The notes: a model not told the origin generated them from the sequence alone. A DNA stretch of 64,000 nt from a candidate division Kazan bacterium GW2011_GWA1_50_15 (GCA_001029795.1 CP011216.1:350767-414766), one strand, 5' to 3'. Shown: positions 2,972-28,748, numbered from the stretch's first letter. Numbers and translations: made by a program.

Positions 2972-3692
2972 TTTTGCGCGCTACCACGACTACACTACTC
3001 CCCCACGGGAACCCCCGGCCTTTGGCTAAATAATTTGCCTCCAATCGGCTGAAACTGATCAGGATTTTATCCACCCACGAACTAGTCGCTACATACGAAG
3101 TTTTGGGCTTAGCGCCTTTGGTCAAAAATCGCACCAACACCACCAGCGGGAAAGTAAAGAAAAAGAATGGTGAAATAAATTGCACCGCAAAGCCCGTCTC
3201 GCGGAATTTAGCTCGCAGTTCACCAACCGAATACCGCCGGAAGTGGTGCAGGGCCTTGTCGTGCGCCGACCACAACCACTGGTGGGCCGGCACGGTAATC
3301 ATCAAATAACCGCCGGGTTTCAGCGCCTGCCACCAAGACCGCAGGGCGACCTTGTCGTTTTCGATATGTTCCAACACATCAAACGCCACCGCCAAGTCAT
3401 ACTCGCTAGTAATCCCCAACTCCGTACCGTCTATCTGCAATAGTTCGTCATAGGCGTGTTGCTCGCGGCAGAACGCCAACGCTTCCGGGCTGGGATCCAC
3501 CCCCGCTACCCTACCCCATTTTTTCAGCCACCAATAGTTGACGCCAGTGCCGCAACCGATATCCAAGATCTCCAACTGGCCGCCAATCGGCAAGTGGCTG
3601 GCCAATACTTTTTGCAAAACCCGCCGCCGGCCGATGTGCCACCAGTAGTGCTGTTCCTGCTTCTCCATCTGCCCGTATTCGGCGAGCTCCAT
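2964..3692 (-). CDS. class I SAM-dependent methyltransferase
   Basis: LDIGCGTG motif I and VLEHI motif; 242 aa; overlaps the gtrA-like start by 8 nt (operon). Confidence 0.7.
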   Translation of the reverse strand: MELAEYGQMEKQEQHYWWHIGRRRVLQKVLASHLPIGGQLEILDIGCGTGVNYWWLKKWGRVAGVDPSPEALAFCREQHAYDELLQIDGTELGITSEYDLAVAFDVLEHIENDKVALRSWWQALKPGGYLMITVPAHQWLWSAHDKALHHFRRYSVGELRAKFRETGFAVQFISPFFFFTFPLVVLVRFLTKGAKPKTSYVATSSWVDKILISFSRLEANYLAKGRGFPWGSSVVVVARKNV

Positions 3693-3753
3693 AATCTAAT
3701 TATACCTGTCCCACCTTTTTCGGTATAATAAGCCCGTCTTGGACTGAATTTTT

Positions 3754-3827
3754 CGGGGCGTAGCGCAGCCCGGTAGCGCACCGCGTTTGGGACGCGGGGG
3801 TCGCAGGTTCAAATCCTGTCGCCCCGA
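3754..3827 (+). tRNA. tRNA-Pro (anticodon TGG)
   Basis: Cloverleaf read by hand: acceptor CGGGGCG/CGCCCCG with the C1:G72 pair typical of tRNA-Pro, anticodon loop TTTGGGA, T-loop GGTTCAAATCC, CCA encoded at 3828-3830. Confidence 0.8.
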
Positions 3828-3905
3828 CCAGACAACTTGCCTTCGGAGAACAATTTAATTATAGTGGAAGCGGGTTTTTAACCCGTACTTTAATATTCTA
3901 GGAGC

Positions 3906-4697
3906 GTGACCCAAATGGCAACATTACCTGTTGAATCTGCTGACGATATTACGGAGTCGGCGCCGCGCAAGCTACCAGAGAATAAAGATGCCGAATTGCG
4001 CGCAGCTCTTCAAGCGGCTCTAGCATCCGACCGGGGCGTGCTGGTTGCTGGAACAATGTGCAACAAAAAGGATTGCCCAACCCCGCCCGGCCTGCGTTGG
4101 CTGGACGAGAAGGAGCTGACTGCAGCTAAGACGCTACCTACATCATCGGGGCTGGTCATCATTCTGACTTCCACACACCACAAAACCAGTATGAAGCTCA
4201 AAGCTAATCTGCCAGAAGGCACCCAGTGCTTCGACCAGGTATCGGGCAATCAAGTGCGGCGGGCACTCAAGAATTTGGGTTATACCCCAGAACCAGTTAC
4301 GCCAGCGCCAGTCATCATGGTCGAGGTTTCACCTCCGCCAGAACCAGCACCCCAACCCAAGCGCCAGCATTACGGCATTAAACTAGTGCAGGTCATCGCT
4401 GACGCCAACGCCGATATGCTATCGTCCCTAGAGATCGAGGGGGCCGCCCAGTGGATAGCGCAATACATCCATCAGCGTAACGGCAAAGTTAATCCCAAGA
4501 CAGTCCGTAGTGTGCTGGAAAACCAACGAAGCGCCAGTGCCACCGATGCCGTGCTCCGCTCCATGGGAGATGACGACCAGGAACTAGGCCAACTCTTCAA
4601 AGAGCTGGACCGGGTCGTCAACAAATTGAAACAGCGTCTCCGCGCTATCGTCGAGGAGCGCAACCAGTACCGCGATGAGCTTTTTGCAGCCAGCTAA
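3906..4697 (+). CDS. hypothetical protein with a Pro-rich central linker
   Basis: 263-aa ORF with a PEPVTPAPVIMVEVSPPPEPAPQP linker and no recognisable catalytic motif; a terminator follows. Confidence 0.45.
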   Translation: MTQMATLPVESADDITESAPRKLPENKDAELRAALQAALASDRGVLVAGTMCNKKDCPTPPGLRWLDEKELTAAKTLPTSSGLVIILTSTHHKTSMKLKANLPEGTQCFDQVSGNQVRRALKNLGYTPEPVTPAPVIMVEVSPPPEPAPQPKRQHYGIKLVQVIADANADMLSSLEIEGAAQWIAQYIHQRNGKVNPKTVRSVLENQRSASATDAVLRSMGDDDQELGQLFKELDRVVNKLKQRLRAIVEERNQYRDELFAAS

Positions 4698-4704
4698 ACC
4701 TTTA

Positions 4705-4733
4705 CCGCCCCGATGAACATCGGGGCGTTTTTC
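4705..4733 (+). terminator. rho-independent terminator
   Basis: CGCCCCGATG-aaca-TCGGGGCG stem followed by TTTTT. Confidence 0.6.
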
Positions 4734-4811
4734 CTGTAAAATATCCTTGTCCCCCTTCTTCTTCTCCGTCCTCCATTATTCATTATTCATCCTTCATTAT
4801 TCATTATCTCG

Positions 4812-6089
4812 ATGCGCTACACCCATTCTTTTCTCAAAACCCTAAAAGACGCCCCGAAAGAGGCGGAGCTTATTAGTCACCAATATCTTCTGCGGGGTGG
4901 GTTCGTCACCCCCTTGGGCGCTGGCATCTATACCTATCTGCCGATGGGTTTTCGGGTAATGCGAAAGATCTATACCATCATTCAAGAAGAATTAAATAAA
5001 ATTGGCGTCGAAGATATTTTGATGCCGGTGGTCCACCCGGCCCGGGTGTGGAAGGAAACCGGCCGATTCTTCGAAGTCGGTCCGGAGCTCTGGAAGATCC
5101 AGAACCGCTCGGAGGAGGATTTCGTATTGGCAATGACTCACGAAGAGGTAGTCACGGACGCGGCCAAGAAAGTTATCCAGTCGTACAAAGACCTGCCGAA
5201 ATTGGTCGGCCAAATCCAACTGAAAGTCCGCGACGAAGCCCGGCCTCGCGGCGGACTCTTGCGTCTGCGCGAGTTCACGATGCAAGACGCCTATTCATTC
5301 GACAAAGACGAGAAAGAGTTAGAGATGTCTTATCAAAAATTTATCGGCGCCTACAAAAAAATATTTGAGCGGGTCGGAGTAAAAACCGTGATGATAGAAT
5401 CCGACACCGGCGCCATGGGCGGCCTGGGCGCGCATGAGTTTATGATGATTACCCCATCCGGCGAGGACAAGATAGTCACCGATGGCACACGAGCAGTGAA
5501 CGCTGAAAAACTCGGCATTGCGAAAGAAGAGGATGTCGACTCCCCCGCCGCTGCCTCCAAGATCGCTGAGTTTTTTGGCACGGCCAAAGTTGAATTTATG
5601 CGCGGCATTGAAGTTGGCAACATATTCAAACTTGGGACCAAATATTCCGACCCGCAGAAACTCAACTATTTGGATGAGAACAATCAGCAACGCCCTGTCA
5701 TTATGGGCAGTTACGGCATCGGACTCGACCGGTTAATCGCTTCCATTGTTGAAGCCAGCCACGACGACAAAGGCATGATTTGGCCGAAGGCGGTAGCCCC
5801 CTACCATATCCACCTCATCTCCATCGGCGACGACGAGAAGGTCTGGAACACCGCTAACCATATATATGAAGAGTTATGGCAGGCTGGAGCGGAGGTGTTC
5901 TTCGATGACCGTCTGGATGTCTCGGCCGGTGACAAGTTCGCCGATGCTGATTTGATCGGCATCCCCCTGAGAGTGGTCATCAGCTCAAAAACGCTAAATG
6001 ACAGTTCCGTTGAAGTCAAAGAGCGCGAGAAAAAAACTGCCAGGTTAGTCGCGCTGAACAGCTTGGTTGATAGCGTTAGGCCTAGGTAG
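4812..6089 (+). CDS. proS: prolyl-tRNA synthetase, short form lacking the bacterial editing insertion
   Basis: N-terminus MRYTHSFLKTLKDAPKEAELISHQYLLRGGF, class II motifs (FRDE-like REFTMQDAYSF) and a C-terminal anticodon-binding domain, 425 aa. No SD is visible; the leader carries CATTATTCAT repeats. Confidence 0.85.
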   Translation: MRYTHSFLKTLKDAPKEAELISHQYLLRGGFVTPLGAGIYTYLPMGFRVMRKIYTIIQEELNKIGVEDILMPVVHPARVWKETGRFFEVGPELWKIQNRSEEDFVLAMTHEEVVTDAAKKVIQSYKDLPKLVGQIQLKVRDEARPRGGLLRLREFTMQDAYSFDKDEKELEMSYQKFIGAYKKIFERVGVKTVMIESDTGAMGGLGAHEFMMITPSGEDKIVTDGTRAVNAEKLGIAKEEDVDSPAAASKIAEFFGTAKVEFMRGIEVGNIFKLGTKYSDPQKLNYLDENNQQRPVIMGSYGIGLDRLIASIVEASHDDKGMIWPKAVAPYHIHLISIGDDEKVWNTANHIYEELWQAGAEVFFDDRLDVSAGDKFADADLIGIPLRVVISSKTLNDSSVEVKEREKKTARLVALNSLVDSVRPR

Positions 6090-6185
6090 AGACTGCTCTT
6101 GTCAGAGACAAGGGTTCTCTTTACAATGACTAGGTCGATTTTTTCGGTTAGTACTTTAAAATCTTATTAAGGGAGGTGGCGGGTG

Positions 6186-7427
6186 ATGCCACTGTTGCAT
6201 GTAGGCAACCAATCGTTGGCGATATTTGCCAACCAGCGGGTAACCAACCCCGATTTCGAGCGCCAGTACGAACAGAGGCATGTTCTGCTGGCAACAGCGG
6301 AGGACGTCCTCGTGACATCCACCCCGATCGACTCTGCCTATCTGGAGTATCTCGACTCTTTAGTGGGCATCCCCGAGATCGTGGTCGCTGGGCGGCATGA
6401 CCAAGTCTGCCTCGCTAAGAACATTTTGGGGGACCCTGAAACCCTGCGGCAGCTGCGGCGGGCTATCGACGGAAGGGAGTTTATCCTCCTACCATTTATG
6501 GCCACTCCGCAGATCGATCAGGTAGCGGCGCTCTTGGGTATTGATGTGTTGGGCTCGTCGGATCTAAGCGAACATTTCAACCGCAAGAGCAATTTCAGGG
6601 ACTTAGCCCACGAGCTAGGTCTGTCGGTCGCGGATGGAGTTGGACACATGCGGGACATTGCGTGCGTGAAACAGGCTGTCTGCCAGCTCGCCAACGGCGA
6701 CGGACAAGTAGTAGTCAAAGGCGACCTGGGCACCGGCGGGATGGAGAACATCCTGCTAGCCGAACACGCATCACTCGATGATCTCGAGCGCCAGTTGGAG
6801 GCTTGGTGGGTGTCTGGAGACAATCCCTTGGGTGAAGCGTTAGTCGCGGAGAGGTGGTATCCCAAGCGATGTTCACCCAGCATCCAGCTCTGTGTCACTA
6901 ACGGCAGTTTTACGCTAGGGCCGGTGATGACACAGATCCTCAACTCGAAAAGTGAGAGCGAGTATCTTGGTTGCCGTTTCCCAGCCAGACTACCAGACGA
7001 GATCGTCGAGGCTCTGGTGACCGGGGCTGAGTCGCTCGCGACCGTCTTCCAGGCCAAGGGGCTAAAAGGCTATATCGGGTTCGATACCATTGTGCTGCCG
7101 GACGGCAGTGTGATGTGGATTGAAGCCAATATGCGCCTCTCGGCCACCAGCTTCCCTTACCAGTTCGGCCAGCGGTTCTTTGGCCACAATCAGTTCAGCA
7201 TGGTAGGGCATTCGGTCAAAACCCGCCCTAGTCTGACGACCGATGGGGTTTTGGGCCGGCTGCGCCCAATGCTGCTTAAGCCTGGGAGCACCTCGGGGGT
7301 TATCCCCTATAACCTCGGGCTGCTGGCCTGGAACAAACTGGACCTGGCGGCCTTCGCCTCACCCCAGGGAGACGACCTAGTCCAGGAGCTGATCGGCGAG
7401 GCCGAACAACGGTTGAACTGGCGCTAG
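6186..7427 (+). CDS. ATP-grasp fold ligase of unknown specificity
   Basis: C-terminal WIEANMRLS (the ExN Mg-binding motif of ATP-grasp enzymes) and a central glycine-rich KGDLGTGGMENI. SD GGGAGGTGG lies 6 nt upstream of the ATG at 6186 (the ORF track used GTG at 6183). Confidence 0.5.
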   Translation: MPLLHVGNQSLAIFANQRVTNPDFERQYEQRHVLLATAEDVLVTSTPIDSAYLEYLDSLVGIPEIVVAGRHDQVCLAKNILGDPETLRQLRRAIDGREFILLPFMATPQIDQVAALLGIDVLGSSDLSEHFNRKSNFRDLAHELGLSVADGVGHMRDIACVKQAVCQLANGDGQVVVKGDLGTGGMENILLAEHASLDDLERQLEAWWVSGDNPLGEALVAERWYPKRCSPSIQLCVTNGSFTLGPVMTQILNSKSESEYLGCRFPARLPDEIVEALVTGAESLATVFQAKGLKGYIGFDTIVLPDGSVMWIEANMRLSATSFPYQFGQRFFGHNQFSMVGHSVKTRPSLTTDGVLGRLRPMLLKPGSTSGVIPYNLGLLAWNKLDLAAFASPQGDDLVQELIGEAEQRLNWR

Positions 7428-7450
7428 CCAGTAAACCTGTACCTTTGACA

Positions 7451-7480
7451 AAAAACGCACTCTGCGAGTGCGTTTTTTTA
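7451..7480 (+). terminator. rho-independent terminator (bidirectional shape)
   Basis: AAAAA-CGCACTC-tgcg-GAGTGCG-TTTTTTT. Confidence 0.65.
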
Positions 7481-7481
7481 T

Positions 7482-7509
7482 TTGACTAGCCCCTTGGGGG
7501 GTATATAAT
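7482..7509 (+). promoter_or_regulatory. sigma70-like promoter for arcA
   Basis: TTGACT-16 nt-TATAAT; an AAGGAG SD follows at 7566. Confidence 0.5.
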
Positions 7510-7571
7510 GTGATGTCAGTTTGGCGTAAGCCAAACCCTTGAAAACTTAAAAAAATTCTCAACTAAAGGAG

Positions 7572-8918
7572 ATGATGCAGTTGGACCGAAGAATTCAGTT
7601 GCAAGTATTGTCGGAGTTCGGCCATCTCGAAACGGTCGTAGTCCACCGTCCAGGGAGAGAGCTCTTGTTGCCACCCCCCAAGGGTGATGACAAGGGAGAG
7701 TTGGATTACTATCTTTGGGATGACATTGTCAGTCTGACCGACATCCGTCGTCAGCATGCCGATTTCCTGGATGCCCTCCCCGCGAGCGGCTCGCTCGGCG
7801 CGCCCTGTCGAGTACTCTGTGTCGAAGAACTGGTCAGTGACGTTTGCGAGGACTTGACAACTCGCCAAGGGATCGCCGACACACTTATTGCCTTGGTCGA
7901 GGTCAACGGACATCGGCTGAACAAGGACCGGCTCGGATGTAACTTTTCCGCCAAGGCCATCAAAGCCATGGCTAACAAAGCCGATGGGACTACCTTCGCC
8001 CAGTGCCTTATTACCGGTTTTTGGGGTGAAGAGAGCCACGAACGGCTCATCCGCCCTATCCCCAACTTGATGTTCATGCGCGACCCCGGGGCAGTGGCTG
8101 GTGACTATCTTTTTCTTTCGACCTTTCGGAAGCCGGCCCGGTTCCGTGAAGAGTTAGTTTTAAGGCTGATGCTTCGACACCCGCTCTTATCCGACATCAA
8201 AATCTGCGATGTAGCCAAGGAGGCGGAGGAAATAGCTCGCCAGGAAGGCGGTAAACCCTCCGAGGAGCCAACGTTCGAAGGTGGCGACCTGTTGGTTGTT
8301 AACGAACGCCTGGCTATCTTGGGTAAGAGTTCACGGACGACGGAGCCGGCAATCAGCGTAATCGTTCACCGTTTGGCGACCATCGGTATGGCCGTCGCGG
8401 TGGTCGAGCTTCCGGCTTTGCGCTCGTGTATGCACATCGACACGGTACTGGGTTTCATTTCGCCGGAATTCTATCTGGCCCACGCACCGATGTTCAATGA
8501 GACGATCGACCAAAAGTTTCGCCCTACCATCAAGGTTCACCGCTCGGCCGCTGGCAAAATCAACTTGAGCGAAGAACCTGAGTATGGCATCGGCGCTCTG
8601 TTGAAAGACTACGGCTATATGGGCGAACCCATCTTCGTCGGCGGGGACAAACCCATCCATCAAAATCGCGAACAATACACAGAAGCCGCCAACGTCATTA
8701 CCGTCCGTCCGAACGCCTTCATCATGTACCAGCGCAACGAAGAAACGGCGCGGGTACTGCACGAGCATGGATTTCTCATCACGACCAGCATCGAAGAGTT
8801 TTGCAGAATCGCCAACGAACCTCGCACTTACATCGTTCTCCTCATCGAGGACAGTGAACTGGTTCGCGGCCGGGGTGGCCCACACTGCATGACCATGCCG
8901 CTATGCCGCGAGGTGTAA
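7572..8918 (+). CDS. arcA: arginine deiminase
   Basis: Motifs collinear with ADI along the whole protein: N-terminal LSEFGHLETVVVHRPG, mid FEGGDLLV, CMHIDTV (catalytic His) and C-terminal GRGGPHCMTMPL (catalytic Cys); 448 aa. Confidence 0.8.
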   Translation: MMQLDRRIQLQVLSEFGHLETVVVHRPGRELLLPPPKGDDKGELDYYLWDDIVSLTDIRRQHADFLDALPASGSLGAPCRVLCVEELVSDVCEDLTTRQGIADTLIALVEVNGHRLNKDRLGCNFSAKAIKAMANKADGTTFAQCLITGFWGEESHERLIRPIPNLMFMRDPGAVAGDYLFLSTFRKPARFREELVLRLMLRHPLLSDIKICDVAKEAEEIARQEGGKPSEEPTFEGGDLLVVNERLAILGKSSRTTEPAISVIVHRLATIGMAVAVVELPALRSCMHIDTVLGFISPEFYLAHAPMFNETIDQKFRPTIKVHRSAAGKINLSEEPEYGIGALLKDYGYMGEPIFVGGDKPIHQNREQYTEAANVITVRPNAFIMYQRNEETARVLHEHGFLITTSIEEFCRIANEPRTYIVLLIEDSELVRGRGGPHCMTMPLCREV

Positions 8919-8979
8919 TTGCCGGCCAGTGGAGTTTGTATTACGCTAGCAAAGTACACTAGCAAAGGAGAATTTAGTC

Positions 8980-10908
8980 ATGAACAGTCTCAGATATGAC
9001 CTGGAGAGGTCCCTCCGCCAGGCGTTGCGTGACGCGATAGCTACCCTCTTCCAGCTCAATCTGGAACTGGAGACTATCTCGATCAACGCCTCTGACCGCG
9101 CGGAGTTCGGCGATCTGTCGTGCCCGCTGCTTAGTCTGGCTAAACAGCTTCACACCAAACCCATCGAGATAGCGGAGAAGGTGCAAGCCGCTCTTCCGCC
9201 TATCCCTTATGTGGCCAAGACGACCGTCACGGCGCCGGGCTACGTCAACTTCTTCCTCGATTTCCCCGCCCTCTGGCGGGAGGTCACGGACAGAGTGAAC
9301 ACCACCGGCGGCGGGTTCTGGAACAAGACCGAGAAAGTTTTGATTGAGCACACCTCGGTCAACCCCAACAAGGCCGCCCATACCGGCCATCTCCGCAACG
9401 CGGTCTTGGGCGATTCGCTCGCCCGCATCTACCGTTTTGCTGGAGCGCCAGTGGAGGTACAGAACTACATCGACGATCTGGGAGTCCAGGTGGCTGATGT
9501 GGTAACGGCCCTGACGTTGCCTTCGGCTGACTACGAAGATCGTCCTCAGCGCGAACATTACGAGAAACCGGACTACTTCTATTGGGACTTGTATACGTGG
9601 TTCAACGCCCACACTGTCAAGGTCCAGCAGGAAGATGGTTCGATGAAAGACGAGCTCGACCCCAAACTCGAAACCAAGCGGAAGCAAACGATGCACGCCA
9701 TCGAAGCGGGCGACCCGGATGTCACCGCAGTGGTCGATCAGGTCGCTACCGAAGTGGTTGATGCTCACCTGGCCACCATGGCTCGGTTGGGCATCGCTTA
9801 CGATCTGCTCGTCTGGGAGAGCGACATCATCAAGTTAAAGTTGTGGGAACACGTCTTCAATCTTCTCAAGGCCAAGAAGGCCGTTCACTATCGCACCGCG
9901 GGTGTCAACCAAGGCACCTGGGTGGTGGAGTACGGCGACCCGAACCAAGAGAAGGAGGACAAGATCCTGGTCCGCAGCGATGGTTCCTTGGTGTACACAG
10001 CCAAGGACATTGCTTATCAGATGTGGAAGTTCGGTCTCGTTGATATCGACTTCCATTACAGGCTGTGGCCAACTCAATCGGGTCTCTGGTCCACCACTTC
10101 CGATGCCAACAAAGCAACGGGTGGACACCCCCACCAGTTCGGCCGTGCCGCGCGAGTCATTAATGTCATTGACAAGCGACAGGCCTATCCGCAGGAGATC
10201 GTCTACAAGTCTCTGGCCAACCTTGGCTTCTCCGAACAGTCCGCTAATTCCCTACATCTCGCATACGATGTCGTATCCCTCTCCCCCGCCACGGCGGAGC
10301 GGATGGGTATCGACACCGGCAGTGGCGCCAAGTCGTACCCCATGTCCGGTCGTAAGGGCATCGGGGTTAAGATCGATGATTTCATCGACCAGACCATCGC
10401 TGCCGTCAAGGAACGCACCCCCGAAGTTACCACCGAGATAGCGGAGGGACTGGCCATTGCCACCATCCGCTACTATATGCTAAGTTTGGGGGCGGATAAG
10501 GAGCTGACCTTTGACATTGATCAGGCTCTGAAGGCCACAGGCAACACAGGAGTGTACATTATGTACTCCTACGCCCGAGCAGCCAACATTCTGGCCAAGG
10601 TGAGTGACGATATCGGTCCGACGACGACCATGCCAGACGAGCTATCCGCCATCGAGCGGACGCTCATCTTGAAACTGGCCAGCCTGGACCAGGCCATTCG
10701 CAAAAGTATCGTCCAGGATGATCCTAATCACCTGATCCAGTACGTGTTCGAACTGGCTACGGGTTTCAGCACGTTTTACGAAAGCACGCCCATTCTGAAG
10801 GGCGATCCCCACTTGCGGCCATTCCGGCTGCAGCTCGTCGCGCTCTATCAGCAGACCTTAGCGAACGCGATGAACTGCCTCGGCATTCCGCCGCTGGACA
10901 AGATCTAA
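8980..10908 (+). CDS. argS: arginyl-tRNA synthetase
   Basis: Arg_tRNA_synt_N-like N-terminus, class I HIGH motif (AHTGHLRN) and a DALR-type C-terminal domain; 642 aa. Confidence 0.85.
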   Translation: MNSLRYDLERSLRQALRDAIATLFQLNLELETISINASDRAEFGDLSCPLLSLAKQLHTKPIEIAEKVQAALPPIPYVAKTTVTAPGYVNFFLDFPALWREVTDRVNTTGGGFWNKTEKVLIEHTSVNPNKAAHTGHLRNAVLGDSLARIYRFAGAPVEVQNYIDDLGVQVADVVTALTLPSADYEDRPQREHYEKPDYFYWDLYTWFNAHTVKVQQEDGSMKDELDPKLETKRKQTMHAIEAGDPDVTAVVDQVATEVVDAHLATMARLGIAYDLLVWESDIIKLKLWEHVFNLLKAKKAVHYRTAGVNQGTWVVEYGDPNQEKEDKILVRSDGSLVYTAKDIAYQMWKFGLVDIDFHYRLWPTQSGLWSTTSDANKATGGHPHQFGRAARVINVIDKRQAYPQEIVYKSLANLGFSEQSANSLHLAYDVVSLSPATAERMGIDTGSGAKSYPMSGRKGIGVKIDDFIDQTIAAVKERTPEVTTEIAEGLAIATIRYYMLSLGADKELTFDIDQALKATGNTGVYIMYSYARAANILAKVSDDIGPTTTMPDELSAIERTLILKLASLDQAIRKSIVQDDPNHLIQYVFELATGFSTFYESTPILKGDPHLRPFRLQLVALYQQTLANAMNCLGIPPLDKI

Positions 10909-10931
10909 ATCGCCTTTCCCCCATTCATTAA

Positions 10932-11005
10932 CCACCCGTAGCTCAGCGGACCAGAGCGTCTGACTACGGATCAGAAGGTCGTGGGTTCAAATCCCATCGG
11001 GTGGT
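10932..11005 (+). tRNA. tRNA-Arg (anticodon ACG)
   Basis: Hand-folded cloverleaf: acceptor CCACCCG/CGGGTGG, anticodon loop CTACGGA, T-loop TTCAAAT. Confidence 0.8.
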
Positions 11006-11028
11006 TATTTTCTCCGCTCTACCTCCGT

Positions 11029-11100
11029 GCGCCTATAGCTCAACGGACAGAGCATCCGCCTTCTAAGCGGGGGGTGCGGGTTCGACTCCCGCTAGGCGTA
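11029..11100 (+). tRNA. tRNA-Arg (anticodon TCT)
   Basis: Acceptor GCGCCTA/TAGGCGT, anticodon loop CTTCTAA, T-arm GCGGG-TTCGACT-CCCGC. Confidence 0.8.
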
Positions 11101-11108
11101 GGTTTACT

Positions 11109-11182
11109 GCGCTTGTAGCTCAGCGGACTAGAGCGCGAGATTCCGAATCTCGAGGGCGGGGGTTCAAATCCCCTCAAGCGCA
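11109..11182 (+). tRNA. tRNA-Arg (anticodon CCG)
   Basis: Acceptor GCGCTTG/CAAGCGC, anticodon loop TTCCGAA. Confidence 0.8.
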
Positions 11183-11195
11183 TTTGTTCTTTCTT

Positions 11196-11267
11196 GCCTC
11201 CGTAGCTCAATGGATAGAGCAGCAGTTTCCTAAACTGCGGGTACGGGTTCAACTCCCGTCGGGGGCC
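11196..11267 (+). tRNA. tRNA-Arg (anticodon CCT)
   Basis: Acceptor GCCTCCG/CGGGGGC, anticodon loop TTCCTAA, T-arm ACGGG-TTCAACT-CCCGT. Confidence 0.8.
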
Positions 11268-11291
11268 ATAACTTGCTCATTGTATCAACCA

Positions 11292-11325
11292 AATCCCCCT
11301 CTCATGAACGAGAGGGGATTTTTTA
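11292..11325 (+). terminator. rho-independent terminator after the tRNA-Arg array
   Basis: ATCCCCCTCTC-atgaac-GAGAGGGGAT followed by TTTTTT. Confidence 0.65.
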
Positions 11326-11333
11326 GATCTTGC

Positions 11334-12416
11334 TCAGTCGTTAACGTATCTCTGGAGCAGCTCCACTACCCTGACCATATCTTTGAGCTTAACCGTTTCG
11401 GTGGTCATATGCGGATTTTTGTAGCCAGCTCCGATATCTAGCGGCCGGAAGTCCTTGCCCACCAGGGTGTTGGCGTCTGAGGCTCCGCCAGAGACCTTTA
11501 GTCGTGGACGGATGCCGACCAGTTTCATCAGTTTGACCGCCTTTTTGATGTGCGGGTCGGTGTGGCTGTAGCAATACCCCTCGCACCAGAGTTCGCGGTG
11601 GATACTGGCCCTCACCCCTAGGGGCTTGGCGGCGGATTCAACAGCCGCTTTGGTCTGAGCAAATATCTTGTCTGCCCTGGAGCGCTCGTGGCTACGGATC
11701 TCGCCTTTGAAGGTGGCGCTGGCTGGCACGGCGTTGATCGCCTGGCCGGAGGCTAGGAACCCAACATTGGCCGTACTCCGGTCGTCTATCCGTCCCACCG
11801 GGATATCGGCGATAGCCCGGGCGGCGACCAGTAGAGCGTTGCGGCCCTTCTCTGGTTCGGCGCCCGAGTGAGCGGCCCGCCCGGTCAGCTCGACCTCGTA
11901 CTCAAAAATGAACGGCGCGGCTGTGGTGATCTTGCCCGACTCGCCGGCATCGAGTATCAGCATCTCGCGTCCCTTTAACCACTCGGGCCTCACCGCCCTG
12001 GCTCCAGTCGCTCCCCGTTCCTCGTCCACCGTGAAGAGTATTTCGATTGACCGTTCGTTTACGAACCCGTCTTTGATGGTAGTGAGTAGCTCTAGTATCT
12101 CCGCCACGCCGGACTTGTCATCGGCTCCTAAGATTGTCGCCCCGCGGCTAGTGAACACACCTTTTTTAAAAACCGGCACTATCCCTCGGCCCGGTTCGAC
12201 GGTATCGAGGTGGGCGCAGAGGACGAGCGGCGCTTCGCCAGTTTTGCCTGGGATGCGCGCGTAGAGATTACCGCGGCTATCTTGTTTAGCGGGTACGTTA
12301 AGCGTGCGTAAATATTTTTTAATATATTTAATTACGCGCGTTTCTTCGCCCGATGGCGAATCAATTTTTACTAAATCGGTAAATAGTTTACTTAATCTTT
12401 GCGAATTAATTTTCAT
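11334..12416 (-). CDS. M20-family metallopeptidase (PepT-like)
   Basis: CAHLDTV (HxDxV metal-binding motif) plus Gly-rich and acidic metal-ligand segments; 360 aa. Confidence 0.65.
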   Translation of the reverse strand: MKINSQRLSKLFTDLVKIDSPSGEETRVIKYIKKYLRTLNVPAKQDSRGNLYARIPGKTGEAPLVLCAHLDTVEPGRGIVPVFKKGVFTSRGATILGADDKSGVAEILELLTTIKDGFVNERSIEILFTVDEERGATGARAVRPEWLKGREMLILDAGESGKITTAAPFIFEYEVELTGRAAHSGAEPEKGRNALLVAARAIADIPVGRIDDRSTANVGFLASGQAINAVPASATFKGEIRSHERSRADKIFAQTKAAVESAAKPLGVRASIHRELWCEGYCYSHTDPHIKKAVKLMKLVGIRPRLKVSGGASDANTLVGKDFRPLDIGAGYKNPHMTTETVKLKDMVRVVELLQRYVND

Positions 12417-12471
12417 AAGTTAAATTGACCAATTAATACTGTATCATTATACCCGCAAGTCCCGGCTACCG

Positions 12472-12520
12472 CAGGGGTTAGCCCCACCCGGGGGCCCTCC
12501 GTGGTGGGTGCGGACCTGGC
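12472..12520. other. GC-rich extended hairpin in the divergent intergenic region
   Basis: GCCCCACC ... GGTGGGGC outer stem with a nested CCCACC/GGTGGG alternative pairing; the local GC is far above its surroundings. Confidence 0.3.
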
Positions 12521-12642
12521 CAGGTGGGGCAAAAAGAGGACTAAATCTGGCCCGGATTTATATCAATAAACTAGCCCTAGAGGCGATTTTAGCTCTGCCC
12601 AGTCATTCTGCCCCAGCCGCATCTAACGGGGGTGTTCTCCTA

Positions 12643-12847: not shown

Positions 12848-13480
12848 ATGAAAAATAAAATCACTCTCTTTCTGCGCAAGCAAGCCGAAGTCAATCGCCA
12901 AGCGTTGGTCTTGGGCGCGGTTTTGTTTTTCACTGGGTTAATGTCTACCGGCATCGTGAGCATGGTGCGAGCCGCCACAGACAACACCAATGTTTCCTTA
13001 AATGTAGCCGCTGGTGCGCTTTCCGTTACTGCTCCCGCCCAGCTGAACTTCAACCAAGGTACCTCGACTCCGGGTGGCACCGCTATTATGAACACTGGTA
13101 CGGGCAATATTATCGAAACGAACGACCCGCGAGGTACTGGAGCGGGTTGGACACTGAGCGGATATTACAACAACATCTTTGAGAATGCCGATAAGAGCGT
13201 TAACTTGAAAATAAATGACACCGGTTCCGTCCTGCGAGCGCTGTGGAAGCCTAACGATATGACCATCGAAAATAATACTGGTGTTTCTGGCGATGTCCAA
13301 GAGAGTGTTATGAACAACTTCCCCAACATTGGTTCTGGCAACAAGTTGCCCATGGCGGTGGCCGCTTCTGGTAACGGGCAAGGTACTTTCAACTATGTTA
13401 ACTTGCAGTTCAACTACAACGTTTCGACCGAAGCCACTCCAGAGGATTACACTACCGAGTTTATCTTCGAGCTTGTCTAA
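12848..13480 (+). CDS. secreted WxL-domain-like surface protein
   Basis: Signal peptide followed by a beta-rich N/T/G-rich body. It has the LxVxAPxQLNF entry motif and DPRGTGAGWTLSGYY, which matches the first WxL-domain motif (D-x-RG-x3-GW-x-L). 210 aa. Confidence 0.55.
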   Translation: MKNKITLFLRKQAEVNRQALVLGAVLFFTGLMSTGIVSMVRAATDNTNVSLNVAAGALSVTAPAQLNFNQGTSTPGGTAIMNTGTGNIIETNDPRGTGAGWTLSGYYNNIFENADKSVNLKINDTGSVLRALWKPNDMTIENNTGVSGDVQESVMNNFPNIGSGNKLPMAVAASGNGQGTFNYVNLQFNYNVSTEATPEDYTTEFIFELV

Positions 13481-13502
13481 CGGATAGTTAAATTTGCATA
13501 AA

Positions 13503-13534
13503 AAAACGGCGAGCCGATTAGCTCGCTGTTTTTA
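13503..13534 (+). terminator. rho-independent terminator
   Basis: GCGAGC-cgatta-GCTCGC followed by TGTTTTT. Confidence 0.55.
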
Positions 13535-13597
13535 AGTTTACCAGCTATACACCTCGGACATAGAGTGGTCTCGTCGCTCGTGATAGTATAAACTTGT

Positions 13598-15157
13598 ATG
13601 TCTCGTCACCCAAAACCAGAATCAACTCGGTGGTCAGCCCCATTCATCTGGGCCTGGCCTCATTTTCGGATGAGCATTGTGGAGTGGCTATTGATTCTGC
13701 CCCTACTGGCCCTAAGTGCTAGACCACTCGTTGACCCCGACTTTGGCTGGCACCTGCGCTCCGGGATGGACCTGCTGAAAAATCTGTCTGTCCCCCGGTT
13801 GGACCCGTATTCGTACACCGCTCCCCACTGGCCGTGGGTTAACCATGAATGGTTGAGCGACGGGATGGCGGCCTTCGTCTACAACATCGGAGGCCCGTTC
13901 GTCCTGATTGCTCTCTTTGCCCTAACCGTCAGCGGGGCTTTCTTGTTGGCGGCGTCTCTCGGCAAACTGGAGCTAAAATACAAACTGCTGGCCAGCGTGA
14001 TGGCCGGGTTGGCCGCCTTACCCATCCTAGGAGTGCGGATGCAGATGCTCACCCTGCTGGGAATGGCTTTGGTGCTGTGGGCGCTTTATCGTTTCCGCAA
14101 TAAAGAAATAAAAAATCTTTGGTGGCTGATACCGGTGTTCTGGCTGTGGACCAATCTGCACGGAGGATTCCTGATGGGGTTAGTTATCTTGGCGGTGTTC
14201 TTTGTGGCTGAAATCATTAAATATACCAGCGAGCGGGTTTGGCCAAAATTTTATCGGCGTCTGCATATCGCCGAAGTTGGTTTTTCGCTCCCCCAATTGC
14301 GTCATTTGATCTGGGTGGGGTTGGGTTCGGGACTAGTAACGCTCATTAACCCTTACGGCTGGGGGCTGTACTACGATTTCTACAAACTATTTTCCACGCC
14401 TTTTGCTACTGAAAGCATCGCCGAGTGGCAGCCGGTTATCCTAAGCAATATTGGCGCTCAGAACTACACCATATATATATCGGTGCTACTCTTGCTCCTG
14501 CTTTTAACCTACCGCAAGGTGGAACCGACCCGCTGGCTATTGATGGGAGTGTTCTTCTATCTTTCACTCCTGTATTGGCGGAACTTGCCGTTCTTTATGA
14601 TCGTTAGCGTGGGATTTTTGGCCGAGACCATCTATCAACATACTCATCTGGTTTTTGATGGTATGGTGCGTAACCGCTACACCCTATTGGTAATCACAGC
14701 GGTCGTAGCCAGCATGGTCGCTCAGTGGATATCGGATGTCATCCCCAAAACAGCTAATCTAGACGCGACCTTCGCGGCTGGCGGATACCCCATCAACGCA
14801 GTCAACTGGGCCAAGACCAACCCCGATAAGCTCGGGACTAAAATGTTCAATGAGTATGGCCACGGTGGCTTCCTCGTGTGGCAGTTCCCCGAACAAAAGG
14901 TGTTCATCGATGGCCGAATGCCTTATTGGAGAACGGACAATGACCGGTTAGTTTTTTATGATGAGCAATATATTTTGAACGCTCGCCCGGGGGCTATCGA
15001 GATGATGCAACAAGAGTACGGCGTGGACTGGGTGTTCATTCGGGCTGGCCTGCCATTGGACTGGGCATTAGATGGACAGGCAGACACTTGGGAAAAAGTT
15101 TACTACGATCGCTACGAGGTAATTTATCGCAAGAAGCCGGCAAATGCCGTACAATAA
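13598..15157 (+). CDS. polytopic membrane protein, putative GT-C-type (YfhO/ArnT-like) glycosyltransferase
   Basis: 519 aa with at least 10 predicted TM helices, a DPDFGWH acidic motif in the first extracytoplasmic loop and a roughly 150-aa C-terminal soluble domain. Confidence 0.35.
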   Translation: MSRHPKPESTRWSAPFIWAWPHFRMSIVEWLLILPLLALSARPLVDPDFGWHLRSGMDLLKNLSVPRLDPYSYTAPHWPWVNHEWLSDGMAAFVYNIGGPFVLIALFALTVSGAFLLAASLGKLELKYKLLASVMAGLAALPILGVRMQMLTLLGMALVLWALYRFRNKEIKNLWWLIPVFWLWTNLHGGFLMGLVILAVFFVAEIIKYTSERVWPKFYRRLHIAEVGFSLPQLRHLIWVGLGSGLVTLINPYGWGLYYDFYKLFSTPFATESIAEWQPVILSNIGAQNYTIYISVLLLLLLLTYRKVEPTRWLLMGVFFYLSLLYWRNLPFFMIVSVGFLAETIYQHTHLVFDGMVRNRYTLLVITAVVASMVAQWISDVIPKTANLDATFAAGGYPINAVNWAKTNPDKLGTKMFNEYGHGGFLVWQFPEQKVFIDGRMPYWRTDNDRLVFYDEQYILNARPGAIEMMQQEYGVDWVFIRAGLPLDWALDGQADTWEKVYYDRYEVIYRKKPANAVQ

Positions 15158-15172
15158 GGTTTGTAACAGGAC

Positions 15173-16573
15173 ATGACTGTCAAAACAAAATTTTTTAGTG
15201 GGGGGTTACTGGGGATTATTCTGCTCACTTCTTTGTCGACTCCGGTGGTGGCCTTAGAAGCCGGCGGAGCGGGTATCGCCCCGGCTAATCCCCGGCCTGA
15301 CGAGCCCCTGTCCTCTAGTTGGTTTATCTATGAAGTTAATCCCGGGGATGTATTAGAAGACGATGTCTGGGTACTCAACACTTCGGATAAACCGCTCAAG
15401 ATCAGTATCGACGCGGTCGATGCTATGTCGTTGGGCGGCGGCGGCTTTGGCTTGTTAGATAGATTCCAACCCAATCCCAATCTGGGTGACTGGGTGACAT
15501 TAGAGGCCAGAGAGCTCGAAGTGGCGCCCAAATCTAAAACCAAAGTGCATTTCAAGATTACCGTTCCGGCCGACCCGGAGGTGGGCGACCATATCGGCGG
15601 ACTGGTAGTGATGAAAATGGATAGTGCGCCTGACGCGGTCAGTAAATCGGGCGGAGCGACCGTCAATATTCGGACACGAGTAGGGGCCCGAATCTATCTG
15701 ACCGTCCTAGGGGACATTCATCGTGGCTGGAAAATTTTAGGGAAATCGTTCTTTGGCCGGGGCGATAAGATGGTACTGCGTTTCAAAGTAGCCAACTCCG
15801 GTAATGTCCGAGCTCGCTTCCAGGGTGATGTGCGGATTTATGGTTTGTTTGGCCTGTACGACAAGTGGCCTGACTTAGATGTTGGCGAAATCTGGCCCGG
15901 CAAAACTAACCTTCAAGAGATAGTTTGGCCCGGAAAACCTCGACCAATCTTTGGGCCGTATTTGATGATAGCCACCATCAAAGACACCTATACGCCCATA
16001 TTGGAAACTAGCACTATCCCACCCGCTCCGAAGCCAGTAACGGTCTGGGCGATTACTTTCTTTATCCCTTATCTGCAAAGCTTGATTTTACTGTTCCTGG
16101 TATTCATCGTTTGGTTCATCATCCAATTGCGCCGCTGGCGGCGGATGGTACGGCTGGCCCGCACCGAAGTGGTGGCATACAAGCTCAAAAAAGGCGACCA
16201 TTTGATGGACATCGCCGCCAAGTATGACATCAACTGGAAGTTCCTGGCTCAATTAAATGACATTAAGCCACCATATAGTTTGCACGGGTTGACTACCGTT
16301 TATGTCCCGGACGCTAGGGGGGCTCGGCGGAATATCCCTCTGCCCCGCTTCTGGGGCCCGCTATTTGCTTCGCTCACTCGTTGGCTAAAGTGGTTTAAGA
16401 CAGCTAAGCCATATCAGGTGATCGTGGTGGAAAAAGGCGATACTAAAAAGGTAATCGAGAACTTTACGGGGCTAACCTGGGCTGAAATTCTCCGCTATAA
16501 CAAGTTCCCGGCTACCACTAAGCCCAAAATTGGGCTAGAGATGAAGATCCCAGCGAAACGTAGAAGAAGATAA
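15173..16573 (+). CDS. DUF916/DUF3324-type cell-surface protein with a membrane anchor and two C-terminal LysM domains
   Basis: After the signal peptide, SWFIYEVNPGDVLEDDVWVLNTSDKPLKISIDA matches the DUF916 core (YFDLxVxPGQ ... NxSDKPxxV). A 30-aa hydrophobic segment is followed by RRWRR, then two LysM-like units (YKLKKGDHLMDIAAKYDINWKFLAQLN and VIVVEKGDTKKVIENFTGLTWAEILRYN). Confidence 0.6.
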   Translation: MTVKTKFFSGGLLGIILLTSLSTPVVALEAGGAGIAPANPRPDEPLSSSWFIYEVNPGDVLEDDVWVLNTSDKPLKISIDAVDAMSLGGGGFGLLDRFQPNPNLGDWVTLEARELEVAPKSKTKVHFKITVPADPEVGDHIGGLVVMKMDSAPDAVSKSGGATVNIRTRVGARIYLTVLGDIHRGWKILGKSFFGRGDKMVLRFKVANSGNVRARFQGDVRIYGLFGLYDKWPDLDVGEIWPGKTNLQEIVWPGKPRPIFGPYLMIATIKDTYTPILETSTIPPAPKPVTVWAITFFIPYLQSLILLFLVFIVWFIIQLRRWRRMVRLARTEVVAYKLKKGDHLMDIAAKYDINWKFLAQLNDIKPPYSLHGLTTVYVPDARGARRNIPLPRFWGPLFASLTRWLKWFKTAKPYQVIVVEKGDTKKVIENFTGLTWAEILRYNKFPATTKPKIGLEMKIPAKRRRR

Positions 16574-16593
16574 CAACGTTAAGCCGGGGTAGA

Positions 16594-16625
16594 GAAAAAC
16601 CTGCTTTCAGAGCAGGTTTTTCTTA
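16594..16625 (+). terminator. rho-independent terminator
   Basis: AAAACCTGCT-ttcag-AGCAGGTTTT. Confidence 0.65.
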
Positions 16626-16660
16626 TGCCCCAATTCGGCCCATCTTCCTCCTATGGGCTA

Positions 16661-16689
16661 TTGACATATACCACAAAATATGATATAAT
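16661..16689 (+). promoter_or_regulatory. consensus sigma70 promoter with extended -10
   Basis: TTGACA-17 nt-TGaTATAAT; the AAGGAGG downstream at 16713 has no start codon at the proper spacing. Confidence 0.6.
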
Positions 16690-28747: not shown

Positions 28748-28748
28748 C

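What the first reader, a model, noticed from the sequence alone, without database searches (positions are those of the whole stretch)
7572..11267. Arginine-centred neighbourhood: arcA - argS - complete set of four tRNA-Arg isoacceptors in a head-to-tail array; tRNA-Pro similarly sits upstream of proS
Seen: arginine deiminase, then arginyl-tRNA synthetase, then tRNA-Arg ACG, TCT, CCG and CCT within 340 nt. Those four anticodons suffice to read all six Arg codons if A34 is deaminated to inosine. A single terminator closes the array. tRNA-Pro(TGG) lies about 1 kb upstream of proS.

Inference: co-transcription of a synthetase with all of its cognate tRNAs, next to the enzyme that catabolises the same amino acid for ATP (the ADI pathway is a major energy route in CPR-like reduced genomes), would couple Arg charging capacity and Arg catabolism. 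It also raises the question of where tadA (A34 deaminase) is.
Basis: partly seen in the sequence, partly recalled or inferred. Interest (0 to 1): 0.5.

Follow-up and report, generated by a model that had tools for sequence, protein, structure and literature searches.

The report
Arginine deiminase–ArgRS–four tRNA-Arg operon
In a tiny-genome Kazan (CPR) bacterium, the arginine-degrading enzyme, the enzyme that loads arginine onto tRNA and all four kinds of arginine tRNA lie head to tail between one promoter-like site and one terminator, an unusual layout also found in its only known relative.

Summary
ARAGORN and Rfam both find tRNA-Arg ACG, TCT, CCG and CCT at 10931-11267. They start 22 nt after argS (8980-10908), which follows a divergent arginine deiminase with intact active-site motifs (7572-8918). 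A terminator plus a strong promoter-like site lie upstream of arcA, and one terminator closes the array, so a single arcA-argS-tRNA transcription unit is plausible but unproven.

The window comes from the public candidate division Kazan genome LCQY01000001.1. The only close relative I could reach (ArgRS 51% identical, 43% GC) has the same order: ATP-grasp, ADI, argS, then at least three tRNA-Arg genes. None of 80 argS loci from other phyla has a tRNA-Arg nearby, and none of 58 ADI loci has argS nearby.

The tRNA-Pro/proS pairing is weaker. An ORF and a terminator separate the two genes, and the relative keeps tRNA-Pro but has no proS there. No arcB, arcC, arcD or tadA lies in the 64 kb window, and the rest of the genome could not be read.

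Unexpectedly, distant homologues of the upstream PGM1/BesA-type ATP-grasp ligase also sit next to ArgRS or tRNA-Arg(TCT) in two other lineages. I rate this a new variant of a known kind, of moderate interest.

The parts
3754..3830 (+). tRNA-Pro(TGG), with CCA encoded
   Evidence: ARAGORN and Rfam at 66 bits. A syntenic copy, cut at its 5' end by the contig edge, sits at the start of L007.
3906..4697 (+). Hypothetical ORF (263 aa) between tRNA-Pro and proS
   Evidence: No Pfam or NCBIfam match. No homologue in any related locus. Absent from this position in L007.
4706..4727 (+). Intrinsic terminator that separates the tRNA-Pro/ORF unit from proS
   Evidence: 9-bp stem with 7 GC pairs, followed by TTTTT.
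4812..6089 (+). proS: short bacterial-type prolyl-tRNA synthetase (425 aa) without the INS editing domain
   Evidence: TIGR00409 scores 451 bits against a cut-off of 307. The match comes in two stretches that skip the insertion. Pfam finds tRNA-synt_2b plus HGTP_anticodon.
6183..7427 (+). PGM1/BesA-type ATP-grasp amide ligase; conserved neighbour of arcA-argS
   Evidence: Pfam PreAtp-grasp plus ATP-grasp_3. PDB sequence matches: 8ynd E 4.5e-15, PGM1 3wvq E 6.6e-9. AlphaFold model with pLDDT 93.5. Foldseek TM-scores: 0.83 to 8ynd, 0.82 to BesA, 0.81 to PGM1. Same position in L007.
7450..7480 (+). Intrinsic terminator after the ATP-grasp gene
   Evidence: 13-bp hairpin at -16 kcal/mol, z-score -4.8, followed by a U-run. 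L007 has an equivalent hairpin.
7482..7509 (+). Best sigma-70-like promoter site in the region: TTGACT, 16 nt, TATAAT
   Evidence: 11 of 12 consensus matches, the top hit in 3400-12600.
7572..8918 (+). arcA: divergent arginine deiminase (the start codon is uncertain by up to 3 codons)
   Evidence: Pfam ADI over profile positions 4-377 of 377, E 5e-45. TIGR01078 over 2-406 of 408 at 174 bits. End-to-end alignment to solved ADIs 4bof, 1rxx and 1s9r. The motifs FMRDP, PARFRE, EGGD, SSRTT, MHIDTV and RGRGGPHCMT line up with the catalytic and guanidinium-binding residues.
8980..10908 (+). argS: arginyl-tRNA synthetase (642 aa)
   Evidence: Pfam Arg_tRNA_synt_N, tRNA-synt_1d and DALR_1. TIGR00456 above its cut-off. 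AAGGAG lies 9 nt before the ATG.
10931..11006 (+). tRNA-Arg(ACG), anticodon loop CUACGGA
11028..11101 (+). tRNA-Arg(TCT)
11108..11183 (+). tRNA-Arg(CCG)
11196..11267 (+). tRNA-Arg(CCT)
11296..11325 (.). Intrinsic terminator that closes the array; the same hairpin also scores on the - strand for the convergent M20 gene
   Evidence: One search lists it on both strands. Fold energy -16.6 kcal/mol, z-score -3.2.
11334..12416 (-). Convergent M20 peptidase, PepT-like; whether it belongs to the module is uncertain
   Evidence: TIGR01883 PepT-like at 251 bits against a cut-off of 274. It belongs to a different M20 subfamily from the ArgE/DapE-like M20 genes next to the ATP-grasp homologues in L150, L154 and L160.

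Best explanation
This is a lineage-conserved arginine operon in a reduced-genome Kazan (CPR/Patescibacteria) bacterium.

The proposed transcription unit runs from a sigma-70-like promoter (7482-7509) through arcA (arginine deiminase), argS and tRNA-Arg(ACG), tRNA-Arg(UCU), tRNA-Arg(CCG) and tRNA-Arg(CCU), to one intrinsic terminator (11296-11325).

The primary transcript would then be cut by RNase P and 3'-end processing enzymes. CCA would be added afterwards, because it is not encoded. This would release the four tRNAs and leave the arcA-argS mRNA.

The result would be that ArgRS is made together with its entire set of substrate tRNAs, and together with the enzyme that destroys free arginine. 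The two fates of imported arginine, charging and deimination, would rise and fall together.

Shown: the identities, order, spacing and signals of the genes, the conservation in a second lineage, and the rarity elsewhere.

Inferred: the single transcript, the processing route, TadA editing of A34, and any selective benefit.
For: - The tRNA identities agree between two programs.
- ArgRS scores above its curated cut-off.
- The ADI aligns end to end with solved ADIs, and all catalytic motifs are present.
- Signals: a terminator followed at once by the top promoter-like site upstream of arcA, no terminator inside the unit, Shine-Dalgarno sequences before arcA and argS, a 22-nt unstructured gap from argS to the first tRNA, spacers of 6-21 nt, and one closing terminator.
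- Contig L007 comes from a different organism (43% against 53% GC; ArgRS 51%, ADI 44%, ATP-grasp 42% identical). It has ATP-grasp, a terminator, a -35-like TTGACA, ADI, argS, then tRNA-Arg(TCT) 13 nt after argS, tRNA-Arg(CCT), and a tRNA cut by the contig end whose loop reads CTACG.
- Backgrounds: 0 of 80 argS loci from other phyla have a tRNA-Arg within 6 kb. 0 of 58 ADI loci have ArgRS or tRNA-Arg nearby.
- ADI directly followed by argS also occurs in L149, where the ArgRS is of a different type (25% identical).
- All six Arg codons are in use.
Against: - There are no transcript data. The promoter scan uses the E. coli consensus, which has not been validated for CPR bacteria.
- Conservation rests on only two lineages, and L007 is cut off by its contig ends.
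- L007 has promoter-like sites inside the 3' end of argS (4918-4946) and between its second and third tRNA (5204-5233). The tRNAs could therefore be transcribed separately.
- The order of the tRNAs differs between the two lineages.
- Retained synteny between relatives can be neutral.
- The ADI scores well below NCBIfam's curated arcA cut-off (174 against 489), and no arcB, arcC or arcD lies in the window.
Confidence: 0.6

Rival explanations
1. Neutral synteny in a compact genome. The tRNA-Arg array happens to lie after argS and is kept only because rearrangements are rare. The tRNAs have their own promoter, and there is no regulatory coupling with argS or arcA.
For: - Only two related lineages share the full layout.
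- L007 has promoter-like sites just upstream of, and inside, its array.
- The order of the tRNAs differs between lineages.
- Arrays of tRNA genes are common in bacteria (PMC8421152).
Against: - The tRNA order was reshuffled and the proS/ORF segment was gained or lost, yet the array stayed 13-22 nt from argS in both lineages.
- 0 of 80 background argS loci have a tRNA-Arg nearby.
- ADI-argS adjacency recurs with a non-orthologous ArgRS type in L149.
- No promoter-like site lies in the last 300 nt of the window's argS.
Confidence: 0.28
2. A wider arginine island. The PGM1/BesA-type ATP-grasp ligase, possibly with an M20 amidohydrolase, works with ADI, ArgRS and tRNA-Arg in a pathway not yet described. 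The ligase would make, and the hydrolase would break, an amide of arginine, citrulline or ornithine. This would resemble the protect/deprotect pairs LysX/LysK or BesA, or the Arg-specific ligase RizA. The genes would cluster because they share the arginine pool.
For: - The ATP-grasp gene is syntenic in the window and in L007.
- Distant homologues (26-30% identical) lie next to Arg translation genes in other lineages. L154 has ArgRS, M20, ATP-grasp (opposite strand) and AspRS. L160 has tRNA-Arg(TCT), then the ATP-grasp 25 nt later, then M20.
- L150, L154 and L160 all pair the ligase with an ArgE/DapE-family M20.
- The family is rare: 786 representatives among 1.84 billion proteins.
- 0 of 80 argS loci contain such a ligase.
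Against: - A strong terminator separates the ATP-grasp gene from arcA.
- Other homologues sit in unrelated contexts: YcaO plus nitroreductase, or a GATase/C26 hydrolase.
- The window's M20 is PepT-like, a different subfamily from the ligase-linked M20s.
- In the window and in L154 the ligase is flanked by two different aaRS genes. The link may therefore be to translation genes in general rather than to arginine.
- The substrates are unknown.
Confidence: 0.2
3. The ADI here is not part of an ATP-yielding ADI pathway. It would be a stand-alone deiminase that produces ammonia and buffers pH, supplies citrulline, or drains arginine. The energy-coupling idea would then be wrong even if the operon is real.
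For: - No OTCase, carbamate kinase or arginine/ornithine antiporter domain occurs in any of the window ORFs scanned, and no OTC motif pair occurs in any frame.
- arcA-only genomes are reported among environmental Saccharibacteria (PMC8764695).
- The ADI loci L007 and L149 also lack arcB and arcC next to arcA.
Against: The other roughly 540 kb of the genome could not be read, so arcB and arcC may be encoded elsewhere.
Confidence: 0.45
4. The array is a mobile or horizontally inserted tRNA cassette, or an integration hotspot, rather than a native operon component.
For: - A 16-nt inverted repeat (10894-10909 and 11322-11337) brackets the array exactly.
- The Kazan ArgRS is of the Bacillota/Acidobacteriota type rather than the type seen in other Patescibacteria MAGs.
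Against: - There is no integrase or transposase, no direct repeats, and no GC anomaly.
- Each arm of the repeat consists of the last codons and the stop codon of a gene, and 26 similar pairs occur in the same 9.2 kb.
- The array is conserved in a divergent relative.
Confidence: 0.03

Closest known systems
Mixed mRNA-tRNA operons of E. coli (secG-leuU, metY-rimP-nusA-infB, thrU-tyrU-glyT-thrT-tufB); from my own knowledge
   Same: tRNA genes and protein-coding genes of the translation apparatus lie on one strand with short gaps. They are transcribed together, and the tRNAs are cut out by RNase P and other nucleases.
   Different: In those operons the tRNAs are not the cognate substrates of the encoded protein. 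Here a synthetase is followed by all four of its isoacceptor types. Co-transcription is only inferred here.
Lactococcus lactis arc cluster: argR, argS-arcA-arcB-arcD1-arcC1-arcC2-arcT-arcD2 (PMC5300872, PMC6586332)
   Same: argS lies directly next to arcA, so the arginine-charging gene and the arginine-catabolic gene are neighbours.
   Different: In L. lactis argS is upstream of arcA, the cluster carries the full pathway (arcB, arcC, arcD), and it has no tRNA genes. Here the order is arcA then argS, no arcB, arcC or arcD is nearby, and four tRNA-Arg genes follow.
Bacterial tRNA gene arrays (PMC8421152)
   Same: Head-to-tail tRNA genes with very short spacers, closed by one terminator.
   Different: Known arrays mix many amino-acid specificities or repeat one anticodon; an example from my own knowledge is E. 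coli argQ-argZ-argY-argV, all ACG. This array holds exactly one gene for each of the four Arg anticodons and is attached to the cognate synthetase gene.
pylS-pylT, a synthetase gene next to its cognate tRNA gene; from my own knowledge
   Same: An aaRS gene and the gene for its tRNA substrate are adjacent and inherited together.
   Different: pylS-pylT is an orthogonal, transferable code-expansion cassette. Here the genes are the housekeeping ArgRS and standard tRNA-Arg genes.
Arginine deiminase system of mammal-associated Saccharibacteria (PMC8764695)
   Same: A CPR bacterium encodes an arcA homologue.
   Different: Saccharibacteria carry a four-gene arcA-arcB-arcE-arcC operon acquired from Firmicutes, and its function has been shown. 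The Kazan ADI is only about 30% identical to any other ADI and has no pathway partners in the window.
PGM1, BesA and Streptomyces ATP-grasp peptide ligases (PDB 3wvq, 8yi6, 8ynd)
   Same: The upstream ATP-grasp protein shares their fold (TM-score 0.81-0.83) and the PreATP-grasp domain.
   Different: Sequence identity is only 18-22%. Those enzymes belong to actinomycete natural-product clusters, whereas this one sits among translation genes in a 0.6-Mb genome. Its substrate is unknown.

Membership tests
Arginine deiminase (ArcA, EC 3.5.3.6; Pfam PF02274, TIGR01078) | Full-length homology to the ADI fold, including the inserted helical domain | tested here: met
   Pfam ADI covers profile positions 4-377 of 377. 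TIGR01078 covers 2-406 of 408. The protein aligns over residues 9-447 to solved ADIs 4bof, 1rxx and 2a9g.
Arginine deiminase (ArcA, EC 3.5.3.6; Pfam PF02274, TIGR01078) | Score above the curated equivalog threshold | tested here: not met
   TIGR01078 scores 174 bits against a cut-off of 489. NF002381 scores 185 against 414. The protein is a divergent member.
Arginine deiminase (ArcA, EC 3.5.3.6; Pfam PF02274, TIGR01078) | Catalytic Cys, His and Asp/Glu, and the Asp/Arg residues that bind the guanidinium and carboxylate groups (P. aeruginosa D166, R185, E224, R243, H278, D280, R401, C406; numbering from my own knowledge) | tested here: met
   The motifs FMRD, PARFRE, EGGD, SSRT, MHIDT and RGRGGPHC align with the corresponding motifs of 1rxx and 4bof.
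Complete ADI pathway (arc cluster) | arcB (OTCase), arcC (carbamate kinase) and arcD or arcE (antiporter) present, usually adjacent to arcA | tested here: not met
   None was found among the ORFs of the 64-kb window that were scanned. None is next to arcA in L007 or L149. The rest of the genome was not testable.
Arginyl-tRNA synthetase (class Ia) | N-terminal Arg_tRNA_synt_N domain, catalytic Rossmann domain and DALR anticodon-binding domain, with a score above the curated cut-off | tested here: met
   All three Pfam domains are present. TIGR00456 scores 311.6 bits against a cut-off of 261.65. An HTGH motif lies at residues 134-137.
Bacterial tRNA-Arg isoacceptors | Cloverleaf structure, an Arg anticodon, and the identity elements A20 and C35 (identity rules from my own knowledge) | tested here: met
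   ARAGORN structures and Rfam scores. The D-loops read AGCGGACCA, AACGGACA, AGCGGACUA and AAUGGAUA, each with an A after GG. All four anticodons have C at position 35.
Complete, non-redundant tRNA-Arg set of the genome | No other tRNA-Arg gene elsewhere in the genome | not testable with these tools
   Only the 64-kb window was readable, plus about 1 kb more from L001. The genome-contig scan did not return the Kazan genome.
Mixed mRNA-tRNA operon | Same strand, short gaps, and no internal terminator between a promoter and a terminator | tested here: met
Mixed mRNA-tRNA operon | A single primary transcript demonstrated | not testable with these tools
   No transcriptome data were available.
T-box- or riboswitch-regulated aaRS gene | A T-box or other known leader RNA upstream of argS, arcA or proS | tested here: not met
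   No Rfam match other than the tRNAs, either at gathering thresholds or at E <= 1, in 3400-12600.
TadA-dependent I34 decoding | A tRNA-Arg(ACG) anticodon loop that matches the TadA substrate (C32 U33 A34 C35 G36 G37 A38; from my own knowledge) | tested here: met
   The loop reads CUACGGA on a 5-bp stem.
TadA-dependent I34 decoding | A tadA gene present in the genome | tested here: inconclusive
   No deaminase Pfam hit in the window, and no (H/C)AE...PCxxC motif in any frame.
PGM1/BesA-type ATP-grasp ligase | PreATP-grasp plus ATP-grasp fold, homologous to PGM1 | tested here: met
   Pfam, PDB sequence search, and the model with fold search at TM-scores 0.81-0.83. The substrate was not testable.

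The most novel reading that the evidence does not exclude
The arcA-argS-tRNA-Arg operon may be the core of an undescribed arginine-handling module of CPR bacteria. The module would also include a PGM1/BesA-type ATP-grasp amide ligase and, in other lineages, an ArgE/DapE-like M20 hydrolase.

The ligase and hydrolase would make and break an amide of arginine, citrulline or ornithine. Their genes would be kept next to ArgRS and tRNA-Arg because all of them draw on one scavenged arginine pool, or because the ligase product acts on the Arg-charging step.

The evidence that does not exclude this reading is the recurrent adjacency in three deeply separated lineages: window/L007, L154 and L160.
Probability: 0.2. 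Interest if true: 0.7.

Novelty: new variant of a known kind. Interest (0 to 1): 0.47.

Why it matters
If the unit is transcribed as one RNA, it would be a clear natural case of a synthetase co-expressed with its complete set of cognate tRNAs. That is a simple stoichiometric alternative to T-box or attenuation control. It would sit in an organism that must import arginine and also encodes an enzyme that destroys it.

It offers a concrete way to ask how ultra-small symbionts divide a scavenged amino acid between translation and catabolism. It also makes a testable prediction: one precursor spanning arcA, argS and the four tRNAs.

The recurring link between a rare ATP-grasp ligase family and ArgRS or tRNA-Arg points to an uncharacterised enzyme pair in CPR bacteria that is worth a systematic survey. 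If none of this holds, the locus is simply a tidy piece of gene order in a genome that is already public.

Tried and rejected
1. Whole-genome tRNA set, tadA, arcB and arcC. The genome-contig scan with an ArgRS alignment returned 80 loci from other phyla but not the Kazan genome. Contig look-ups give at most 10 kb of flank. These questions remain open.

2. More Kazan-lineage loci. The metagenome scan with the ADI alignment found nothing above 32% identity. The ArgRS and ADI protein searches found only one relative above 45%.

3. T-box or other leader RNAs. None was found.

4. arcB, arcC, arcD or tadA in the window. Pfam scans of the window ORFs and motif scans of all six frames were negative. 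The Lyase_1 gene at 37798-39162 is purB, not argH.

5. The M20 gene as part of a conserved ligase/M20 pair. The window's M20 is PepT-like and only 24-25% identical over its full length to the ArgE/DapE-like M20s next to the ligase homologues (28% to the partial L160 copy). Orthology is rejected.

6. ORF 3906-4697 as a conserved member. It has no homologue in any fetched context.

7. Mobile cassette. No integrase and no GC anomaly were found, and the 16-nt inverted repeat is made of gene ends.

8. The amidinotransferase reading of the ADI-family protein, which I considered because PGM1-type ligases pair with amidinotransferases in natural-product clusters (own knowledge). Only true ADIs match in the PDB, and the arcA model matches end to end.

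9. Literature searches for synthetase-plus-cognate-tRNA operons found no description.

Full report
**Observation**

ARAGORN finds seven RNA genes in the window. Four of them are head-to-tail tRNA-Arg genes on the + strand: ACG 10931-11006, TCT 11028-11101, CCG 11108-11183 and CCT 11196-11267. Rfam's tRNA model finds the same four at 65-70 bits, against a gathering score of 29.

The array spans 337 nt with spacers of 21, 6 and 12 nt. Each tRNA folds as a normal cloverleaf. Each has an A after the D-loop GG (A20) and C35 in the anticodon, which are the canonical ArgRS identity elements (own knowledge). None encodes CCA.

The ORF 22 nt upstream (8980-10908) has the three ArgRS domains and passes the curated argS model. 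The ORF before it (7572-8918) is an ADI-family protein. tRNA-Pro(TGG) is at 3754-3830 and proS at 4812-6089.

**Source**

The ArgRS is 100% identical to a protein of 'candidate division Kazan bacterium'. The locus lies on GCA_001004375.1, contig LCQY01000001.1 (601,557 bp), and appears in several other assemblies of the same species. The genome is public and its genes are already annotated. Any novelty lies in the arrangement.

**Is the ADI real?**

It scores far below NCBIfam's arcA cut-off (174 against 489 bits), and its nearest non-lineage homologues are only about 31% identical. However, it aligns end to end with three solved ADIs. All motifs that carry the catalytic and substrate-binding residues are present: FMRD, PARFRE, EGGD, SSRT, MHIDT and RGRGGPHCMT. 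No amidinotransferase or DDAH matched in the PDB. I call it a divergent but probably active arginine deiminase.

**Transcription signals**

The ATP-grasp gene upstream ends in a strong hairpin with a U-run (7450-7480; -16 kcal/mol; z-score -4.8). The best sigma-70-like site in the 9-kb region follows immediately: TTGACT, 16 nt, TATAAT at 7482-7509.

AAAGGAG precedes arcA, and AAGGAG lies 9 nt before argS. The arcA-argS and argS-tRNA gaps contain no significant structure. No terminator-like site of comparable strength lies inside the unit. One terminator (11296-11325) closes the array and also faces the convergent M20 gene.

Rfam finds no T-box or other leader. These signals fit a single arcA-argS-tRNA unit, but they remain consensus matches without transcript data.

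**Conservation**

Only one relative above 45% identity exists for ArgRS or ADI among 5.8 billion proteins. Its contig, L007 (5,326 bp, 43% GC against 53% in the window), carries the following, in order:
- a tRNA-Pro(TGG) cut at its 5' end by the contig edge;
- the ATP-grasp gene (42% identical);
- a terminator hairpin followed by TTGACA;
- ADI (44% identical);
- argS (51% identical);
- 13 nt later, tRNA-Arg(TCT), then tRNA-Arg(CCT);
- at the contig end, the first 34 nt of a tRNA whose anticodon loop reads CTACG, which I take to be tRNA-Arg(ACG).

The order of the tRNAs differs from the window (ACG, TCT, CCG, CCT), but the attachment to argS is kept.

**Backgrounds**

- None of 80 argS loci from Bacillota, Armatimonadota, Acidobacteriota and others (36-43% identical ArgRS, 6-kb flanks) has any tRNA-Arg. 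None has an ADI, ATP-grasp or M20 homologue either.
- None of 58 ADI loci from metagenomes has ArgRS, the ligase or a tRNA-Arg.
- Two ArgRS relatives at 44-45% identity sit in ordinary flagellar or signalling contexts.
- ADI-argS adjacency does recur once more, in L149, where ADI overlaps the start of an ArgRS of a different type (25% identical to the Kazan enzyme).
- argS next to arcA is also known in Lactococcus lactis (PMC5300872, PMC6586332).

**tRNA-Pro and proS**

A 263-aa ORF with no known family and a strong terminator (4706-4727) lie between them. In L007 the tRNA-Pro is retained directly upstream of the ATP-grasp gene, with no proS or ORF between them. The proximity in the window is therefore not a conserved synthetase-tRNA coupling and does not look co-transcribed.

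**Decoding and the ADI pathway**

All six Arg codons are used in 41 window genes: CGT 108, CGC 225, CGA 90, CGG 245, AGA 68, AGG 61. The four anticodons are the standard bacterial set (own knowledge). The ACG tRNA has the loop CUACGGA that TadA recognises (own knowledge), so I34 editing is expected.

No deaminase domain or signature is present in the window. No OTCase, carbamate kinase or antiporter is present either. The remaining roughly 540 kb could not be read with these tools. Complete ADI systems are rare among environmental Saccharibacteria, the CPR group surveyed, and arcA-only genomes occur there (PMC8764695).

**The unexpected neighbour**

The gene between proS and arcA (6183-7427) encodes an ATP-grasp enzyme with a PreATP-grasp domain. 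Its confident model (pLDDT 93.5) superposes on a Streptomyces ATP-grasp peptide ligase, on BesA and on PGM1 at TM-scores of 0.81-0.83 (sequence matches). The family is rare: 786 representatives among 1.84 billion proteins.

The contexts of its 26-30% identical homologues vary:
- YcaO plus nitroreductase;
- a C26 glutamine amidotransferase-type hydrolase;
- FemAB, a second ligase and an M20;
- L154: ArgRS, M20, ATP-grasp (opposite strand) and AspRS;
- L160: tRNA-Arg(TCT), 25 nt later the ATP-grasp, then M20.

The last two again involve arginine translation genes. The M20 partners there are ArgE/DapE-like, whereas the window's convergent M20 is PepT-like, so they are not orthologues. I cannot explain this recurrent link. 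I record it as the most novel reading that the evidence does not exclude.

**Verdict**

The best explanation is a lineage-conserved arcA-argS-tRNA-Arg(x4) operon, of which the single transcript is inferred, not shown. Neutral synteny is the main rival.

It resembles known mixed mRNA-tRNA operons and the lactococcal argS-arc neighbourhood. It differs in joining a synthetase to one gene for each of its isoacceptor types. I rate it a new variant of a known kind, of moderate interest.

Noticed in passing
L154:24-5495 and L160:81-1855 (compare window 6183-7427): Distant homologues of the window's ATP-grasp ligase lie next to arginine translation genes in other lineages. L154 has ArgRS, an ArgE/DapE-like M20, the ATP-grasp gene and AspRS. 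L160 has tRNA-Arg(TCT), then the ATP-grasp gene 25 nt later, then M20.
   Followed up: partly
window 28626-32060 (-), 28049-28597 (-), 27113-27229 (-): The 23S rRNA match spans 3,435 nt against a model of 2,925, so it carries about 500 nt of insertions. A LAGLIDADG endonuclease ORF lies in the 1.4-kb stretch between the 23S 3' end and the 5S gene. No 16S rRNA gene is in the window.
   Followed up: no
window 10894-10909 and 11322-11337: A 16-nt inverted repeat (CTGGACAAGATCTAAA / TTTAGATCTTGCTCAG) brackets the tRNA array plus terminator exactly. Its arms are the last codons and stop codons of argS and of the convergent M20 gene. It is probably chance.
   Followed up: partly
window 4812-6089: ProRS has only 425 aa. 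It matches the bacterial-type model in two stretches that skip the INS editing domain, so the enzyme apparently lacks cis-editing.
   Followed up: no
window 3754-3830 versus 10931-11267: tRNA-Pro encodes its 3' CCA, here and in L007. None of the four tRNA-Arg genes does.
   Followed up: no
L007:85-150: A degenerate partial copy of the 3' half of tRNA-Pro lies just downstream of the truncated tRNA-Pro(TGG). It looks like a tRNA remnant.
   Followed up: no
window 8980-10908, compared with L149, L154 and L155: The Kazan ArgRS (642 aa) is about 43% identical to Bacillota, Armatimonadota and Acidobacteriota enzymes. It is only about 25% identical to the ArgRS type found in MAGs named 'Patescibacteria group'. 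This suggests replacement or horizontal acquisition of argS in the Kazan lineage.
   Followed up: partly
window 56909-57349 (+) and 58697-59069 (+): smpB and the tmRNA gene (tag ANKAFSGSSAFAPALA) lie about 1.3 kb apart, with two - strand ORFs of unknown family between them.
   Followed up: no
window 12848-21048: A run of probable cell-surface proteins lies downstream of the M20 gene, with WxL-like, LysM, WxLIP_PGBD and PKD domains and several ORFs with no family.
   Followed up: no
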